Positions 7,930 through 63,095 of a stretch of 64,000 nt of DNA are shown piece after piece; the first letter of the stretch is position 1; each line of letters opens with the position of its first letter. Where the stretch lies: NCBI RefSeq assembly GCF_054482525.1, contig NZ_CM137006.1; one strand, 5' to 3'. The position numbers were made by a program, and so were the translations under genes. Under the pieces are notes generated by a model. It had not been told where the DNA came from. It saw only the letters and a list, made by a program, of their open reading frames with translations, and made no database searches.

Positions 7930-7955
7930 TTCTCCCGATTTCCTCAATTGCAATG

Positions 7956-7986
7956 AACCCGATGATCTGCGCATCGGGTTTTTTAT
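7956..7986 (+). terminator. rho-independent terminator after cheW
   Basis: stem AACCCGATG/CATCGGGTT followed by T-run. Confidence 0.6.
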
Positions 7987-8015
7987 TTCAATTTAGCGGT
8001 AGGTGGCATCTGCAA

Positions 8016-8042
8016 TAAAGTTTCCCCCCTCCTTGCCGATAA
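8016..8042 (+). promoter_or_regulatory. sigma28 (FliA) class III promoter of the tar-tap-cheRBYZ operon
   Basis: TAAAGTTT - 11 nt - GCCGATAA is an exact match to the sigma28 consensus, about 30 bp upstream of the tar ATG. Confidence 0.8.
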
Positions 8043-20757: not shown

Positions 20758-21513
<756 letters not shown>

Positions 21514-21559
21514 TTTTTACCGTTGCATCATGTCGCCCAATATGATGCTTGCTCGTACC

Positions 21560-21592
21560 AGGCCCCTGCAATTTCAACAGGGGCCTTTTTTT
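21560..21592 (+). terminator. rho-independent terminator after cutC
   Basis: stem AGGCCCCTG/CAGGGGCCT followed by T7. Confidence 0.65.
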
Positions 21593-58648: not shown

Positions 58649-59521
58649 ATGCTGGCGTTTACCTGGATCGCGCTGCGATTTATCCATTTCACCTCGCTGA
58701 TGCTGGTCTTTGGCTTCGCAATGTACGGTGCCTGGCTGGCACCCTTAACGATTCGTCGCTTGCTGACGAAGCGTTTTCTGCGTTTACAACAGCACGCTGC
58801 CGTCTGGAGTTTGATCAGTGCCACTGCAATGCTCGCCGTTCAGGGCGGGTTGATGGGAACGGGATGGACAGATGTATTTTCGCCAAATATTTGGCAGGCT
58901 GTTTTGCAAACGCAGTTTGGTGGCGTCTGGTTATGGCAAATTGTTCTCGCCCTCGTAACGTTGATCGTCGCCCTTATGCAACCGCGGAATATGCCACGTT
59001 TGCTGTTTATGCTCACTACCGCGCAATTTATTCTGCTGGCGGGAGTCGGGCATGCGACGCTGAATGAAGGGGTAACGGCGAAAATCCATCAGACTAATCA
59101 CGCGATTCACCTGATTTGTGCGGCGGCGTGGTTTGGGGGATTACTGCCGGTGCTCTGGTGTATGCAACTCATCAAAGGCCGTTGGCGACACCAGGCTATT
59201 CAGGCGCTGATGCGTTTTTCCTGGTGCGGGCATTTTGCGGTGATCGGCGTACTGGCAAGCGGCGTGCTTAATGCATTGTTGATTACCGGATTTCCCCCCA
59301 CGCTTACGACTTACTGGGGCCAACTCTTATTGCTCAAAGCCATCCTGGTGATGATTATGGTGGTCATCGCGCTGGCTAATCGTTATGTTCTTGTACCGCG
59401 CATGAGGCAGGATGAAGATCGTGCGGCTCCCTGGTTTGTGTGGATGACTAAACTCGAATGGGCGATAGGTGCGGTAGTGCTGGTGATCATCAGCCTGCTT
59501 GCGACTCTCGAACCTTTTTGA
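58649..59521 (+). CDS. yebZ: inner membrane protein YebZ (CopD family)
   Basis: 290-aa multi-pass membrane ORF immediately after yobA. Confidence 0.9.
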   Translation: MLAFTWIALRFIHFTSLMLVFGFAMYGAWLAPLTIRRLLTKRFLRLQQHAAVWSLISATAMLAVQGGLMGTGWTDVFSPNIWQAVLQTQFGGVWLWQIVLALVTLIVALMQPRNMPRLLFMLTTAQFILLAGVGHATLNEGVTAKIHQTNHAIHLICAAAWFGGLLPVLWCMQLIKGRWRHQAIQALMRFSWCGHFAVIGVLASGVLNALLITGFPPTLTTYWGQLLLLKAILVMIMVVIALANRYVLVPRMRQDEDRAAPWFVWMTKLEWAIGAVVLVIISLLATLEPF

Positions 59522-59533
59522 TGGATTACGAAA

Positions 59534-59875
59534 ATGATGAAAAAAAGTATTCTGGCGTTTCTGTTACTCACCAGTTCTGCAGCGGCGCTGGCGGCACCGC
59601 AGGTGATTACCGTCAGTCGTTTTGAAGTGGGTAAAGACAAATGGGCATTTAACCGCGAAGAGGTGATGCTGACTTGCCGACCGGGTAATGCTTTGTATGT
59701 CATTAACCCAAGTACTCTCGTGCAGTATCCGTTAAACGATATTGCACAAAAAGAAGTCGCCAGCGGGAAGACTAAAGCCCAGCCCATATCGGTGATTCAG
59801 ATTGATGATCCCAACAATCCCGGCGAAAAAATGAGTCTGGCACCGTTTATAGAACGAGCTGATAAACTCTGTTAA
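59534..59875 (+). CDS. yebY: DUF2511 family protein YebY
   Basis: 113-aa ORF with signal peptide. Confidence 0.88.
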
Positions 59876-59902
59876 TTACCTAAAATAGCCTTTTGATTTC
59901 CA

Positions 59903-59945
59903 ATAAAAAACCGCCTCAGTTCTTTCACCAGAACAGGCGGTTTTT
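59903..59945. terminator. bidirectional terminator (yebY on + strand; RyeA on - strand)
   Basis: hairpin CCGCCT...AGGCGG flanked by AATAAAAAA upstream and TTTTT downstream. Confidence 0.6.
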
Positions 59946-60032
59946 AACATTTAAGCTAATGACCCCCACGCTTTTTATTGACCATTTTGCACGCAAACTG
60001 GAAAACCTGGCGTCGTCATCTATTCTTAAAGG

Positions 60033-60135
60033 GCAAGGCAACTAAGCCTGCATTAATGCCAACTTTTAGCGCACGGCTCTCTCCCAAGAGCCATTTCCCT
60101 GGACCGAATACAGGAATCGTGTTCGGTCTCTTTTT
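60033..60135 (+). ncRNA. sdsR: small RNA SdsR (RyeB), sigmaS-dependent Hfq-binding sRNA
   Basis: GCAAGGCAACTAAGCCTGCATTAATGCCAACTTTTAGCGCACGGCTCTCTCCCAAGAGCCATTTCCCTGGACCGAATACAGGAATCGTGTTCGGTCTCTTTTT matches the SdsR sequence from memory and ends in a terminator hairpin plus U-run; -10 element CATCTATTCT with C at -13 just upstream. Confidence 0.85.
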
Positions 60136-60269
60136 ATCTGTTAAAAGCCAGAAGCATTCCTTTCGCTGACTTTATAGTCAACCATAACACACACTCTACT
60201 GTCTGAGTCCAGCATTTTTTAACATTCCTGTTAAGATTATGTGATCTTTAGCGCGGGAGGAAAATATTG

Positions 60270-60926
60270 ATGAAACAGCCTGCGCCCGTTTATCAGAGAA
60301 TTGCGGGTCATCAATGGCGACATATCTGGCTTTCAGGCGATATACACGGTTGTCTTGAGCAGTTGCGCCGCAAATTATGGCATTGTCGTTTTGATCCGTG
60401 GCGAGATTTACTTATCTCAGTGGGAGACGTTATCGATCGTGGGCCGCAAAGTTTACGTTGCCTGCAGTTACTGGAACAACATTGGGTTCGTGCGGTAAGA
60501 GGCAATCATGAACAGATGGCGATGGATGCGCTGGCATCCCAGCAGATGTCTTTATGGTTGATGAATGGCGGCGACTGGTTTATTGCGCTGGCAGATAATC
60601 AACAGAAACAAGCGAAAGCGGCGCTGGAAAAATGTCAGCATTTGCCCTTTATTCTTGAAGTACACAGTCGCACCGGCAAACATGTTATTGCTCATGCCGA
60701 TTATCCAGATGATGTTTATGAATGGCAAAAGGACGTTGATTTGCATCAGGTCTTGTGGAGCCGCTCGCGATTAAGTGAACGCCAAAAAGTGCAGGGAATT
60801 ACAGGTGCTGATCATTTCTGGTTTGGTCATACACCGTTGCGCCATCGCGTGGATATTGGCAACCTGCATTATATTGATACAGGTGCTGTCTTTGGGGGCG
60901 AACTGACTGTTGTGCAATTGCAATAA
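60270..60926 (+). CDS. pphA: serine/threonine protein phosphatase 1
   Basis: ORF 60267..60926; ATG at 60270 gives the 218-aa form; metallophosphatase motifs GDIHGC and GNHE. Confidence 0.92.
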   Translation: MKQPAPVYQRIAGHQWRHIWLSGDIHGCLEQLRRKLWHCRFDPWRDLLISVGDVIDRGPQSLRCLQLLEQHWVRAVRGNHEQMAMDALASQQMSLWLMNGGDWFIALADNQQKQAKAALEKCQHLPFILEVHSRTGKHVIAHADYPDDVYEWQKDVDLHQVLWSRSRLSERQKVQGITGADHFWFGHTPLRHRVDIGNLHYIDTGAVFGGELTVVQLQ

Positions 60927-61576: not shown

Positions 61577-63016
61577 TCAGGCGTTACCGGTAAAAAGTTT
61601 CCCGTCTCGCACCAGTTCACGCGGGTAGCTGTTTTTCAGTCGCGAACCAATTCGTTTGGCTAAACCAATCGGCTGATGCTGGAAAGTTACCAATACATCA
61701 TCCGCTACTGGCGCGGCTTGCGGGTAAACATCGCGCCCGCGATACCACTCTTCCGCCTCCTGCGGTGTCAGTTCAAAAGCGTTCACATTGTCGGGGGAGG
61801 CAAGGGCAATAACCGCTTCATGCTGCCAGCGATAACCTTTGTTATGCGTTTCGGCAAGTTTAATCCCCAGGCGAGAAAATCGGACTTTACCGATCAGGGC
61901 TTCAATGCCTACCGGGAACAACCACAGTTCTTTGTCGCGTTGCCAGAGTCGCAGGTTTCCATCCCAGTTTAAGCCAACACTTGCAGCCGCCTGACAAATT
62001 TGTCCAGCTTCGCGATCTTTCACCGGGCTGAACGGGAAATTGCCCACTTTGTATTTTGGGGCGGGTAAGGCGGGAATCGCCTGAGTTTTACGCAGACGAG
62101 CAACGAAGAAGCCTTCGCAGTCGTAAATTTGTGGGAAAACATGCAAAAAGCCTTCTTCTGTCAGCGCCTTGTTTGCACCAGGGAAGAGATCGCCAAGCGG
62201 TAAAAACTCTACTGCGTCGGGGTAAGTCTCTTTCAGCCACAGGCAAACTGCTTCGTTTTCTTCCCTGTTTAAGGTACAGGTCGAGTAAACCAGCGTACCG
62301 CCAGGGCGTAATGCATGAAAGGCGCTGTCGATCAGTTCCCGTTGGGTAGCTGCGATTTCCTGATTGCTTTCTGGTGACCAGTTTTTTAGCGCATCGGGAT
62401 CTTTACGCACCACGCCTTCGCCGGAGCAGGGAGCGTCCAGCAAAATGGCATCGAACATTTCTGGCACTGCCGCACCAAATACACGGCCATCAAAATGCGT
62501 GAGCGCAACATTACGGATGCCACAGCGGCTGATATTGGCATGTAACACTTTTACTCGACTGGCGGAAAACTCATTGGCAAGGATCGCCCCTTCGTTATTC
62601 ATCCGCGCGGCAATTTGCGTCGTTTTGGAGCCTGGCGCAGCAGCGACATCCATCACCCGCTGTGGTGCATTACCGTCAGCAAACAAGGCGGCGACGGGCA
62701 ACATTGAACTGGCTTCCTGAATATAAAACAGGCCACTTAAATGCTCGGCGGTACTACCCAACGGCAATGCATCTTCATCGTCGCGTTCAATCCAGAAACC
62801 TCCTTCACTCCACGGAATTGGCGTAAGCGTCCAGCCATAAGGAGCGGTTAATTGCAGGAAATCAGCAACGGAGATTTTCAGCGTATTAACGCGAATGCTG
62901 CGGCGCAACGGGCGCTGACAGGCGGCAAGAAAATCATCAAAAGAGAGCGTCGAAGGCATCGCTTCGCGCATTTGCGTCAGAAAGGCGTCCGGGAAATAAA
63001 CGGTGTGTTGGGCCAC
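61577..63016 (-). CDS. rsmF: 16S rRNA m5C1407 methyltransferase RsmF
   Basis: ORF 61577..63022; NOL1/NOP2/Sun-family methyltransferase; the GTG at 63016 would give a 479-aa product (ATG at 63022 is an alternative start). Confidence 0.9.
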
Positions 63017-63095
63017 GAGCATATACCACTGGCAAAAAAACAGGCGCGCAGTTTAGCATAAACGCTCCGGCGCAGGCACGCCGGAGCAGTGGGCA

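What the first reader, a model, noticed from the sequence alone, without database searches (positions are those of the whole stretch)
59900..60170. SdsR/RyeA overlapping sense-antisense sRNA pair between yebY and pphA
The SdsR sequence is recognisable on the plus strand with a sigmaS-type -10 element (C at -13) and its own terminator. Its antisense partner RyeA would be transcribed from the minus strand and end at the bidirectional terminator shared with yebY. The pair has been described as a toxin-antitoxin-like sRNA module.
Basis: partly seen in the sequence, partly recalled or inferred. Interest (0 to 1): 0.5.

Follow-up and report, generated by a model that had tools for sequence, protein, structure and literature searches.

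The report
Known SdsR/RyeA antisense small-RNA pair

Summary
The observation and the interpretation both hold. The window is E. coli. Rfam models match at full length: SdsR_RyeB at 60036-60135 (+), 114 bits against a threshold of 38, and SraC_RyeA at 60139-59995 (-), 175 bits against 37. Mapped from K-12 annotation and published end-mapping, SdsR is 60033-60135 (+). RyeA runs from 60173 down to about 59904 (-). It ends in the U-tract of a hairpin that also terminates yebY on the other strand.

The sdsR promoter has TGGAAA, a 16-nt spacer and C(-13)TATTCT. The ryeA promoter has an extended -10, TGtTATGGT. Both are identical to the K-12 boxes that were tested by mutation.

In 107 species-level loci, conservation is confined to 59997-60136, which is the sdsR promoter plus SdsR. 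C(-13) is present in 106 of 107. The terminator stem covaries. Its G·U pairs fit only the SdsR strand: 910 of 913 cells pair there, against 810 of 913 on the RyeA strand. The ryeA -10 motif was found in only 27 of 114 other species.

So SdsR is the ancient selected unit and RyeA is a lineage-restricted antisense brake. "Toxin-antitoxin" is a published label (type VIII), but the locus is core and syntenic, not mobile. Nothing here is new, and interest is low.

The parts
59534..59875 (+). yebY coding sequence (113 aa), the upstream neighbour
   Evidence: ORF list. RefSeq annotation of the 100% identical PCN033 locus. A yebY homologue lies upstream on the same strand in 104 of 120 related loci.
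59905..59945 (.). Bidirectional intrinsic terminator. The hairpin is at 59911-59940, flanked by an A-run (59905-59910, which reads as the U-tail for RyeA on the minus strand) and a T-run (59941-59945, the U-tail for yebY).
   Evidence: Inverted repeat I1. The folds give -14.1 kcal/mol on + and -15.5 kcal/mol on -. RyeA 3' RACE ends at +263 and +269/+270 in K-12 fall here (mapped). The window allele has A at 59935 where K-12 has G, and 6 A's where K-12 has 7.
59999..60026 (+). sdsR sigmaS-type promoter: -35 TGGAAA (59999-60004), 16-nt spacer, C(-13) at 60020, -10 TATTCT (60021-60026, with C at -8), then the A/T-rich discriminator TAA
   Evidence: Read directly from the sequence. The box is identical to the K-12 box mutated in PMC6610125. 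The sigmaS criteria are listed in PMC3333887. Cross-species conservation: C-13 in 106/107, T-12 in 107/107, A-11 in 106/107, C-8 in 104/107, T-7 in 106/107.
60033..60135 (+). SdsR (RyeB) sRNA, about 100-103 nt. It has a 5' hairpin (60033-60051), then a conserved single-stranded base-pairing region (about 60052-60074) that holds C15=60047, G26=60058, the RNase E site at nt 31=60063 and C38=60070. Stem-loop 2 is at 60075-60092, and the terminator hairpin at 60101-60129 is followed by a U-run to 60135.
   Evidence: RF00111 at 114.4 bits. K-12 annotation maps to 60032-60135. The TSS lies 1 nt downstream of the old annotation, and the 3' ends are at +100 to +102. Fold z-score is -4.05. The terminator stem covaries. 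Functional residues come from PMC5137417. The sequence is identical to K-12 across the whole RNA.
59903..60173 (-). RyeA (SraC) antisense RNA, about 270 nt, fully containing the complement of SdsR (RyeA nt 39-141)
   Evidence: RF00101 at 175.1 bits over 60139-59995. The K-12 ryeA annotation maps to 60173-59903. There are three TSS at 60173-60175, and 3' ends at +261 to +270. The paper's construct coordinates put ryeA +10 at sdsR +132, which gives ryeA +1 = sdsR +141 = 60173.
60181..60189 (-). ryeA sigma70 promoter, extended -10 TGtTATGGT on the minus strand. No convincing -35 is present.
   Evidence: The plus-strand ACCATA at 60181-60186 is the box changed to CTCGAG in the ryeA promoter mutant of PMC6610125. 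The motif recurs downstream of sdsR in 27 of 114 other species, against about 0.5 expected by chance.
60270..60926 (+). pphA (serine/threonine phosphatase 1), co-oriented downstream gene. It is reported to be transcribed mainly by read-through from the sdsR promoter.
   Evidence: ORF list, RefSeq annotation, PMC6610125.

Best explanation
This locus is the E. coli sdsR/ryeA unit. SdsR (60033-60135, +) is transcribed by RpoS-RNA polymerase from a C(-13)TATTCT promoter when cells enter stationary phase. It ends at its own intrinsic terminator, binds Hfq, and represses many mRNAs in trans through its conserved single-stranded region. [quoted passage not shown] RNase E cleavage at nt 31 yields a second, roughly 70-nt active form. 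RyeA (60173 to about 59904, -) is transcribed by sigma70 polymerase from an extended -10 promoter during growth. It reads convergently across the whole sdsR unit and ends at the bidirectional yebY terminator. RyeA restrains SdsR in two ways: perfect duplex formation followed by RNase III cleavage (mutual degradation), and transcriptional interference with the sdsR promoter. Because part of sdsR transcription reads through the SdsR terminator into pphA, RyeA transcription also keeps pphA off during growth. What is shown here: the sequences, boundaries, promoter boxes, terminators, the structure and its covariation, and the conservation pattern. What is taken from published K-12 and Salmonella experiments on identical or near-identical sequence: sigma-factor dependence, RNA ends, RNase III and RNase E processing, Hfq binding, targets, toxicity and read-through. 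What is inferred: that this strain behaves like K-12.
For: Rfam matches are full-length and far above threshold on both strands. SdsR, its promoter, the ryeA -10 and the ryeA TSS region are base-for-base identical to K-12, where the transcripts are annotated and were mapped by primer extension, RACE and in vitro transcription with E-sigmaS and E-sigma70. The conservation block across 107 species-level loci coincides exactly with the sdsR promoter plus SdsR (59997-60136, identity 0.64-1.0). It drops to 0.2-0.45 just outside. The sigmaS determinants are nearly invariant. The terminator stem has 4 pairs with compensatory changes. 102 G·U cells are tolerated only on the SdsR strand, against 2 only on the RyeA strand. 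A 5' hairpin is predicted in most of the 64 distinct 5' variants, all of the 60 listed. Within E. coli, the sdsR unit is at least 99% identical in 5152 of 5425 genomes, whereas both RyeA-only flanks reach that level in only 3 genomes. The ryeA-ryeB duplex was the top stationary-phase RNase III dsRNA cluster in vivo.
Against: No expression data exist for this strain. RyeA here differs from K-12 at 6 positions (RyeA +13, +15, and 59965, 59958, 59953, 59935) and has one U fewer in its terminator tail, though none of these lies in the promoter, the TSS or the SdsR overlap. The RF00101 hit is not independent evidence for RyeA, because 100 of its 145 positions are the complement of SdsR. The model also scores 47-53 bits on Shewanella and Paraglaciecola loci, where the E. 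coli-type ryeA -10 motif was not found. The simple sigma70 consensus scan did not pick up either promoter.
Confidence: 0.93

Rival explanations
1. The locus is first and foremost a genuine type VIII toxin-antitoxin module. On this reading, SdsR is an RNA toxin that arrests or kills cells by repressing yhcB, RyeA is its RNA antitoxin, and the pair is maintained for addiction, persistence or defence like other TA systems.
For: Choi et al. 2018, as summarised in PMC6610125, report SdsR overexpression toxicity through yhcB and its neutralisation by RyeA. TADB 3.0 lists SdsR-RyeA as one of two experimentally validated type VIII TA loci. The perfect antisense overlap needed for neutralisation is present.
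Against: The locus behaves like a core housekeeping regulator, not a TA cassette. It is present in 5425 of 5426 complete E. coli genomes at one chromosomal place. It sits downstream of yebY in 104 of 120 loci across Enterobacterales. sdsR is conserved without a recognisable ryeA -10 motif in at least three quarters of the species sampled, so the 'toxin' usually occurs without this 'antitoxin'. Selection on structure acts on the SdsR strand only. Deleting the sraC promoter raises SdsR only about 1.5-fold and is tolerated. The ryeA promoter mutant is viable and changes few genes.
Confidence: 0.05
2. The conserved block encodes a small protein (for example the 63-codon TTG ORF at 59978-60169 on the plus strand) rather than, or in addition to, non-coding RNAs.
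For: Mechanical ORFs overlap the region: 59978-60169 (+, 63 aa), 59893-60045 (+, 50 aa) and 59925-60041 (-, 38 aa).
Against: The ORFs start with TTG, and none is annotated in K-12 or RefSeq. The cross-species alignment has 1-nt indels inside the block (alignment columns 15, 22 and 82) and 3-nt-plus changes in Shewanella that break any frame. Conservation follows stems, loops and promoter boxes, with compensatory pair changes. The conservation block starts at the -35 box, not at a start codon.
Confidence: 0.01
3. Only SdsR is functional here. On this reading, the RyeA call is an artefact of the antisense overlap in the Rfam model, and no discrete minus-strand RNA is made in this strain.
For: RF00101 scores above threshold on Shewanella and Paraglaciecola loci purely through the SdsR complement. 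RyeA-specific sequence is poorly conserved. Frohlich 2012 regards SraC as dispensable.
Against: The extended -10 (TGtTATGGT), the three mapped start sites and the first 12 nt of RyeA are identical to K-12, where RyeA is seen by Northern blot, RACE and in vitro transcription. The -10 motif, with flanking AAACCATAACAyAC, is conserved in 27 other Enterobacteriaceae species, against about 0.5 expected. A good minus-strand terminator is in place.
Confidence: 0.02

Closest known systems
E. coli K-12 sdsR (b4433) / ryeA (b4432), Rfam RF00111 and RF00101 (clan CL00105)
   Same: The genomic position is the same (yebY - sdsR/ryeA - pphA). SdsR, the sdsR promoter, the ryeA -10 and the TSS are 100% identical. 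The terminators are the same, and both Rfam matches are full-length.
   Different: There are only strain-level polymorphisms outside SdsR. Ten differences were found over the 431 aligned bases (59860-60290). These include two in the RyeA 5' hairpin loop (60159, 60161), a perfect U-A pair (59935) where K-12 has a G·U/C×A position in the shared terminator, and a 6-nt rather than 7-nt U-tail for RyeA. This flank haplotype is rare: it is at least 99% identical in only 3 of 5425 genomes.
Salmonella SdsR/SraC (Frohlich 2012, 2016)
   Same: It has the same sigmaS promoter logic (C-13, C-8, 16-nt spacer, A/T discriminator), the same three-stem architecture and the same functional residues C15, G26 and C38. 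It also has the RNase E site at nt 31 and the same location downstream of yebY.
   Different: SraC is about 35 nt longer in Salmonella and Shigella because its -10 box lies further from sdsR. In my scan the ryeA -10 lies 45 nt beyond the SdsR 3' end in E. coli but about 81 nt beyond it in most other genera. OmpD, the founding target, is Salmonella-specific.
Type VIII toxin-antitoxin systems (creTA; SdsR-RyeA as listed in TADB 3.0)
   Same: Both partners are RNAs. The antitoxin neutralises the toxin by base pairing, and the two lie on opposite strands with full overlap.
   Different: creTA is tied to CRISPR-Cas loci and behaves as an addiction module. sdsR/ryeA is a core, vertically inherited, sigmaS-regulon locus, and its 'toxin' is conserved far beyond the range of its 'antitoxin'.
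Other cis-antisense sRNA pairs and antagonists processed by RNase III
   Same: Convergent overlapping transcription produces a perfect duplex that RNase III cleaves. ryeA-ryeB was the most abundant stationary-phase dsRNA cluster captured in E. coli.
   Different: Here both partners are discrete sRNAs with their own promoters and terminators, and one of them is also a global Hfq-dependent trans-regulator.

Membership tests
Rfam RF00111 SdsR_RyeB | Covariance-model score at or above the curated gathering threshold over the full model | tested here: met
   114.4 bits against 38, model positions 1-100 of 100, E=1.8e-21, at 60036-60135 (+) (repeated).
Rfam RF00111 SdsR_RyeB | Three-stem architecture with a Rho-independent terminator, supported by covariation | tested here: met
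   The MFE fold has a 5' hairpin, stem-loop 2 and an 11-bp terminator, z=-4.05. RNAalifold on 83 distinct sequences keeps stem-loop 2 and the terminator, with 4 pairs changed on both sides. A 5' hairpin is predicted in most of the 64 distinct 5' variants, all of the 60 listed. Stem-loop 2 was fixed by my search pattern, so it is uninformative.
Rfam RF00111 SdsR_RyeB | sigmaS-type promoter: C at -13, a -10 box with C at -8, an A/T-rich discriminator and a 16-nt spacer | tested here: met
   The sequence is TGGAAA, 16 nt, C-TATTCT-TAA, at 59999-60029. The criteria are from PMC3333887. These positions are conserved in 104-107 of 107 loci. Actual RpoS dependence in this strain is not testable with these tools.
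Rfam RF00111 SdsR_RyeB | Location immediately downstream of yebY, on the same strand | tested here: met
   yebY ends at 59875, 158 nt before SdsR +1. The same arrangement holds in 104 of 120 related loci.
Rfam RF00111 SdsR_RyeB | Hfq binding, stationary-phase accumulation and trans-repression of targets | not testable with these tools
   Published for the identical K-12 RNA and for Salmonella. The known targets lie outside this window.
Rfam RF00101 SraC_RyeA | Covariance-model score at or above the gathering threshold | tested here: met
   175.1 bits against 37, model positions 1-145 of 145, at 60139-59995 (-). Caveat: the model largely mirrors SdsR. It also scores 47-53 bits on Shewanella and Paraglaciecola loci, so this alone does not prove that a RyeA gene exists.
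Rfam RF00101 SraC_RyeA | Own sigma70 promoter downstream of, and convergent with, sdsR | tested here: met
   The extended -10 TGtTATGGT is at 60189-60181 (-), 7-9 nt upstream of the mapped starts at 60173-60175. It is identical to the K-12 box whose mutation abolishes RyeA. The motif is conserved in 27 other species.
Rfam RF00101 SraC_RyeA | Termination at the yebY-proximal intrinsic terminator (about 270-nt RNA) | tested here: met
   The minus-strand hairpin folds at -15.5 kcal/mol and is followed by UUUUUU. The K-12 3' RACE ends map into this U-tract. Termination itself was not measured in this strain.
Type VIII toxin-antitoxin system | RNA antitoxin able to base-pair with the RNA toxin | tested here: met
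   SdsR lies wholly inside RyeA on the opposite strand, giving about 103 bp of perfect complementarity.
Type VIII toxin-antitoxin system | The toxin RNA arrests growth and the antitoxin relieves it | not testable with these tools
   Reported for K-12 upon SdsR overexpression via yhcB, as cited in PMC6610125. The primary paper, PMC6284582, is not held.
Type VIII toxin-antitoxin system | Toxin and antitoxin co-inherited as one module; patchy or mobile distribution typical of TA loci | tested here: not met
   sdsR occurs without the recognisable ryeA -10 motif in 87 of 114 other species. Conservation and structural selection are confined to the SdsR strand and unit. The locus is core (5425 of 5426 genomes) and syntenic.

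The most novel reading that the evidence does not exclude
The 'toxin-antitoxin' pair may be a recent regulatory overlay on a much older sRNA. A sigmaS-type sdsR sharing the same 3' two-thirds exists outside Enterobacterales. In four Shewanella loci it lies about 110 nt downstream of rsmF, a gene that is also a near neighbour of sdsR in E. coli, and one Paraglaciecola locus carries the same sdsR-like core. The ryeA promoter, by contrast, is recognisable only in a subset of Enterobacteriaceae and at variable distance. In E. coli that distance is about 36 nt shorter, alongside the direct sdsR-pphA read-through arrangement. If so, RyeA evolved as a growth-phase gate for SdsR and pphA, not as an antitoxin. 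The first half of this idea (sraC less conserved than sdsR) was already stated by Frohlich 2012. The extension to Alteromonadales and the rsmF linkage rest only.
Probability: 0.55. Interest if true: 0.2.

Novelty: already known. Interest (0 to 1): 0.08.

Why it matters
For the scan, the value is in closing the item.

Biologically, SdsR/RyeA is a useful model. A global stationary-phase sRNA, linked to porin and efflux control and to mismatch repair and mutagenesis via mutS, is gated by an antisense RNA through both RNA degradation and transcriptional interference. Through terminator read-through, SdsR transcription also carries a downstream phosphatase gene.

The comparative results add modest support to one view: SdsR is the selected unit, RyeA is a lineage-specific add-on, and the type VIII toxin-antitoxin label should be read as a phenotype description.

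Tried and rejected
1. The simple sigma70 promoter scan found neither experimentally defined promoter. The sdsR promoter matches only 4+4 of 12 consensus positions, and ryeA relies on an extended -10. The scan's one hit (CTGATA-16-TAAAAT, 59859-59886) is at chance level (1.2 expected). It lies near the old 'heat-shock pphA promoter', which Choi 2019 found inactive.

2. The terminator scan missed the yebY/RyeA terminator because of its internal bulge and loop criteria. It was recovered by the inverted-repeat search and by folding.

3. The small-ORF reading was rejected (see the rival explanations).

4. I tested whether the C-interrupted U-tract of the SdsR terminator (UCUCUUUUU) goes with a downstream pphA, as a possible read-through design. 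It does in 15 of 43 loci, against 6 of 51 for uninterrupted tracts. This is confounded by phylogeny, and pphA is often kilobases away, so I did not pursue it.

5. A candidate -35 for ryeA (TGGACT) has a 19-nt spacer, and hexamers at 17-18 nt match poorly, so no -35 is claimed.

6. The permissive Rfam scan of 59400-60700 added only a noise hit: rliE, 26.5 bits against a threshold of 90, E=0.077.

7. The 2018 toxin paper (PMC6284582) is not in the held library. Its claims are cited second-hand.

8. The ryeA -10 motif count (27 of 114) is a lower bound. Salmonella arizonae, which is reported to express SraC, has a different box and was scored as absent.

It also required an invariant stem-loop 2, so taxon counts are not exhaustive and stem-loop 2 conservation is ascertained, not observed.

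Full report
**What is in the sequence.** The window is Escherichia coli. The 441 bases around the finding are 100% identical to three complete genomes (PCN033, SCU-102, 19KM1776) and 95-99% identical to 5,422 others. In the identical RefSeq record the flanking genes are yebY and pphA. In the window these are 59534-59875 (+) and 60270-60926 (+).

A whole-window Rfam scan at curated thresholds gives four hits. Two lie in the finding:
- SdsR_RyeB (RF00111) at 60036-60135 (+), 114.4 bits against 38, E=1.8e-21, full model.
- SraC_RyeA (RF00101) at 60139-59995 (-), 175.1 bits against 37, E=2.9e-40, full model.

**Boundaries.** K-12 MG1655 annotates ryeA (b4432, 272 nt) and sdsR (b4433, 104 nt) between pphA and yebY. 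A pairwise alignment maps these to window 60173-59903 (-) and 60032-60135 (+).

Choi et al. 2019 (PMC6610125) re-mapped the ends in K-12.
- The sdsR start is 1 nt downstream of the older annotation, which is window 60033 (GCAAGGC...).
- The SdsR 3' ends are at +100 to +102.
- ryeA has three starts. The most downstream is the annotated 5' end (60173, so 60173-60175 for the three).
- The RyeA 3' ends are at +263 and +269/+270.

The paper's construct coordinates put ryeA +10 at sdsR +132. That gives ryeA +1 = sdsR +141 = 60173, which matches. The RyeA 3' ends fall at the base of, and in the U-tract after, a hairpin at 59911-59940. This hairpin folds on both strands, at -14.1 kcal/mol on + (followed by UUUUU) and -15.5 kcal/mol on - (followed by UUUUUU). 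SdsR has its own terminator: an 11-bp stem at 60101-60129 followed by CUUUUU.

**Promoters.** Upstream of SdsR the sequence reads TGGAAA (59999-60004), a 16-nt spacer, C (60020), TATTCT (60021-60026), then TAA. With +1 at 60033, the C is at -13 and there is a C at -8. These are the sigmaS-selectivity features listed by Frohlich et al. 2012 (PMC3333887). TATTCT is the box that Choi 2019 replaced by CTCGAG to kill the sdsR promoter.

For ryeA, the plus-strand ACCATA at 60181-60186 is TATGGT on the minus strand. It is preceded by TGT, giving an extended -10 (TGtTATGGT), with the canonical start position at 60174. This is the box Choi 2019 mutated to CTCGAG. I found no convincing -35 for ryeA. The generic sigma70 scan detects neither promoter.

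All of 59967-60158 is identical to K-12. This stretch covers both -10 boxes... more precisely, it covers the sdsR promoter and the whole of SdsR, and the ryeA -10 and start sites further right are also identical.

**Evidence from relatives.** One scan of species-representative genomes used the SdsR core pattern TAGCGCACGGCTCT-N6-AGAGCCATT.

- *Conservation.* In 107 non-redundant loci with full flanks, identity to the window is 0.64-1.0 per 10-nt bin from 59997 to 60136. It falls to 0.2-0.45 immediately outside, apart from the yebY terminator stem. The conserved block is thus exactly the sdsR promoter plus SdsR. The RyeA-only parts (60137-60173 and 59904-59996) are not conserved.
- *Promoter positions.* C(-13) is present in 106/107 loci, T(-12) in 107/107, A(-11) in 106/107, C(-8) in 104/107 and T(-7) in 106/107. 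The -35 TGGAAA is kept in 88-106 of 107, and the +1 G in 105/107.
- *Structure.* In 83 distinct SdsR sequences the terminator stem has four pairs with changes on both sides, and essentially no broken pairs. A 5' hairpin is predicted in most of the 64 distinct 5' variants, all of the 60 listed.
- *Strand test.* 910 of 913 terminator-stem cells pair on the SdsR strand, but only 810 of 913 on the RyeA strand. 102 cells are G·U on the SdsR strand, which become A×C on the other strand; the reverse case occurs only twice. Structural selection therefore acts on SdsR.
- *Within E. coli.* The 142-nt sdsR unit is at least 99% identical to the window in 5,152 of 5,425 genomes. Each RyeA-only flank reaches that level in only 3 genomes.

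**RyeA as a lineage-restricted overlay.** The ryeA -10 motif (plus strand ACCATAnCA, usually within AAACCATAACAyAC) occurs within 300 nt downstream of SdsR in 27 of 114 other species. All are Enterobacteriaceae. About 0.5 such loci are expected by chance. The motif lies 17-82 nt from the SdsR 3' end. The most common distance is 81 nt, against 45 nt in E. coli. This fits the report that SraC is about 35 nt longer in Salmonella and Shigella, and that sraC is found in only about half of enterobacteria. The count is a lower bound, because Salmonella arizonae has a different box.

The RF00101 hit is not independent evidence for RyeA. The model is mostly the complement of SdsR, and it still scores 47-53 bits on Shewanella and Paraglaciecola loci, where the E. 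coli-type motif was not found. For this window, the case for RyeA rests on three things: identity to the experimentally characterised K-12 promoter and starts, conservation of the motif, and a good minus-strand terminator.

**How it works.** The mechanism below comes from the literature and applies to an identical SdsR and a near-identical RyeA.
- E-sigmaS transcribes sdsR, and E-sigma70 transcribes ryeA in vitro. Both RNAs end by intrinsic termination.
- SdsR binds Hfq at two sites. RNase E cleaves it at nt 31 (window 60063), giving a roughly 70-nt form.
- SdsR uses two pairing regions, around C15/G26 and around C38 (window 60047, 60058, 60070), to repress many mRNAs. The E. coli targets named are tolC, mutS and yhcB.
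- RyeA and SdsR destroy each other via RNase III. Their duplex was the most abundant stationary-phase dsRNA cluster captured in vivo.
- ryeA transcription also interferes with the sdsR promoter.
- pphA is transcribed mainly by read-through from the sdsR promoter.

The net result is a growth-phase switch: RyeA is on and SdsR/pphA are off in growth, and the reverse holds in stationary phase.

**Toxin-antitoxin label.** The pair was described as a novel TA type and is listed as type VIII in TADB 3.0. On membership, the base-pairing feature is met and the toxicity feature is untestable here. The co-inheritance and patchy-distribution feature is not met. The locus is core (5,425 of 5,426 genomes) and syntenic with yebY in 104 of 120 loci. 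The 'toxin' is also far more widely conserved than the 'antitoxin'. I therefore treat 'TA' as a description of an overexpression phenotype, and favour the reading of a sigmaS-regulon sRNA with an antisense gate.

**Strain-specific details.** Compared with K-12, the window has differences at 59863 (in yebY), 59935, 59953, 59958, 59965, 60159, 60161, 60214 and 60228. It also has one A fewer in the 59905-59910 run. Position 59935 turns a G·U (plus strand) or C×A (minus strand) position of the shared terminator into a Watson-Crick pair. The minus-strand hairpin is -15.5 kcal/mol here against -14.8 in K-12, while the RyeA U-tail is one U shorter. None of the differences touches SdsR, either -10 box or the start sites.

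**Verdict.** The feature is already known, annotated in K-12, and represented by two Rfam families and several experimental papers. Interest is low. The only mildly new items are side observations, listed separately.

Noticed in passing
L029:9565-9667 (+), L065:2041-2143 (+), L109:4103-4204 (-), L052, L096:11011-11110 (+): SdsR-like RNAs occur outside Enterobacterales, in four Shewanella genomes and one Paraglaciecola genome. They score 62-87 bits on RF00111 against a threshold of 38. They share the 3' two-thirds of SdsR and show compensatory changes in the terminator stem. In Shewanella a sigmaS-like -10 (C-TACACT-AAT or C-TATACT-AGT) lies upstream. No paper in the held library has SdsR and Shewanella together in its title or abstract (the papers were not read).
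   Followed up: partly
L029:7948-9486 (+); window 61577-63022 (-): In all four Shewanella loci the sdsR-like gene sits about 110 nt (593 nt in L052) downstream of rsmF, which encodes the 16S rRNA m5C1407 methyltransferase. The two are on the same strand, and there is no yebY. rsmF is also a near neighbour of sdsR in E. coli and many Enterobacteriaceae, but there it is convergent and 0.7-5 kb away. This may be a remnant of an ancestral linkage.
   Followed up: partly
L029, L065, L096, L109: The Rfam SraC_RyeA model (RF00101) passes its gathering threshold (47-53 bits against 37) on loci where the E. coli-type ryeA -10 motif was not found. This happens because 100 of its 145 positions are the complement of SdsR. 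An RF00101 hit alone should not be read as evidence for a RyeA gene.
   Followed up: yes
window 60137-60189 compared with L004, L007, L033, L035 and others: The ryeA -10 box lies 45 nt beyond the SdsR 3' end in E. coli (59 nt in Escherichia sp. E1V33), but about 81 nt beyond it in most other genera that have it. So E. coli carries a deletion of about 36 nt in the RyeA 5' region. E. albertii (L006) lacks both the motif and an adjacent pphA.
   Followed up: partly
L123:1749-2446 (E. coli FDAARGOS_944): An IS1A element is inserted in the 5' part of sdsR, with the break near window 60041 (about SdsR nt 9). It separates the sdsR promoter from most of the RNA. This is a rare natural disruption: only 2 of 5,425 genomes lack at least 80% coverage of the sdsR unit.
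   Followed up: partly
window 59876-59994 and 60137-60266: The two flanks of sdsR carry a rare haplotype. They are at least 99% identical in only 3 of 5,425 complete E. coli genomes (PCN033 among them), while the sdsR unit between them is the species consensus.
   Followed up: partly
E. coli RefSeq genomes other than K-12: RefSeq/PGAP annotation lists no feature for sdsR or ryeA in the matching genomes; the features under the match are given as 'none'. Only the curated K-12 record carries them. The region looks like an empty 394-bp intergenic gap in ordinary annotations.
   Followed up: no
window 21285-21592 (+): Full-length match to the MicL sRNA (RF02654), 368 bits, E=4.9e-111.
   Followed up: no
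window 7949-8026 (-): Full-length match to the candidate sRNA C0465 (RF00116), 91.2 bits against a threshold of 40.
   Followed up: no
window 59859-59886 (+): A sigma70-like promoter match (CTGATA-16-TAAAAT) overlaps the yebY stop codon. It lies near the position of the formerly reported pphA heat-shock promoter, which Choi 2019 found inactive. The match is at chance level for the region.
   Followed up: no
L118 (record titled Martelella alba BGMRC 2031): A genome labelled as the alphaproteobacterium Martelella alba carries a typical enterobacterial-type yebY-sdsR locus. It scores 109 bits on RF00111, and its YebY is 52% identical. The record may be misnamed or contaminated.
   Followed up: no
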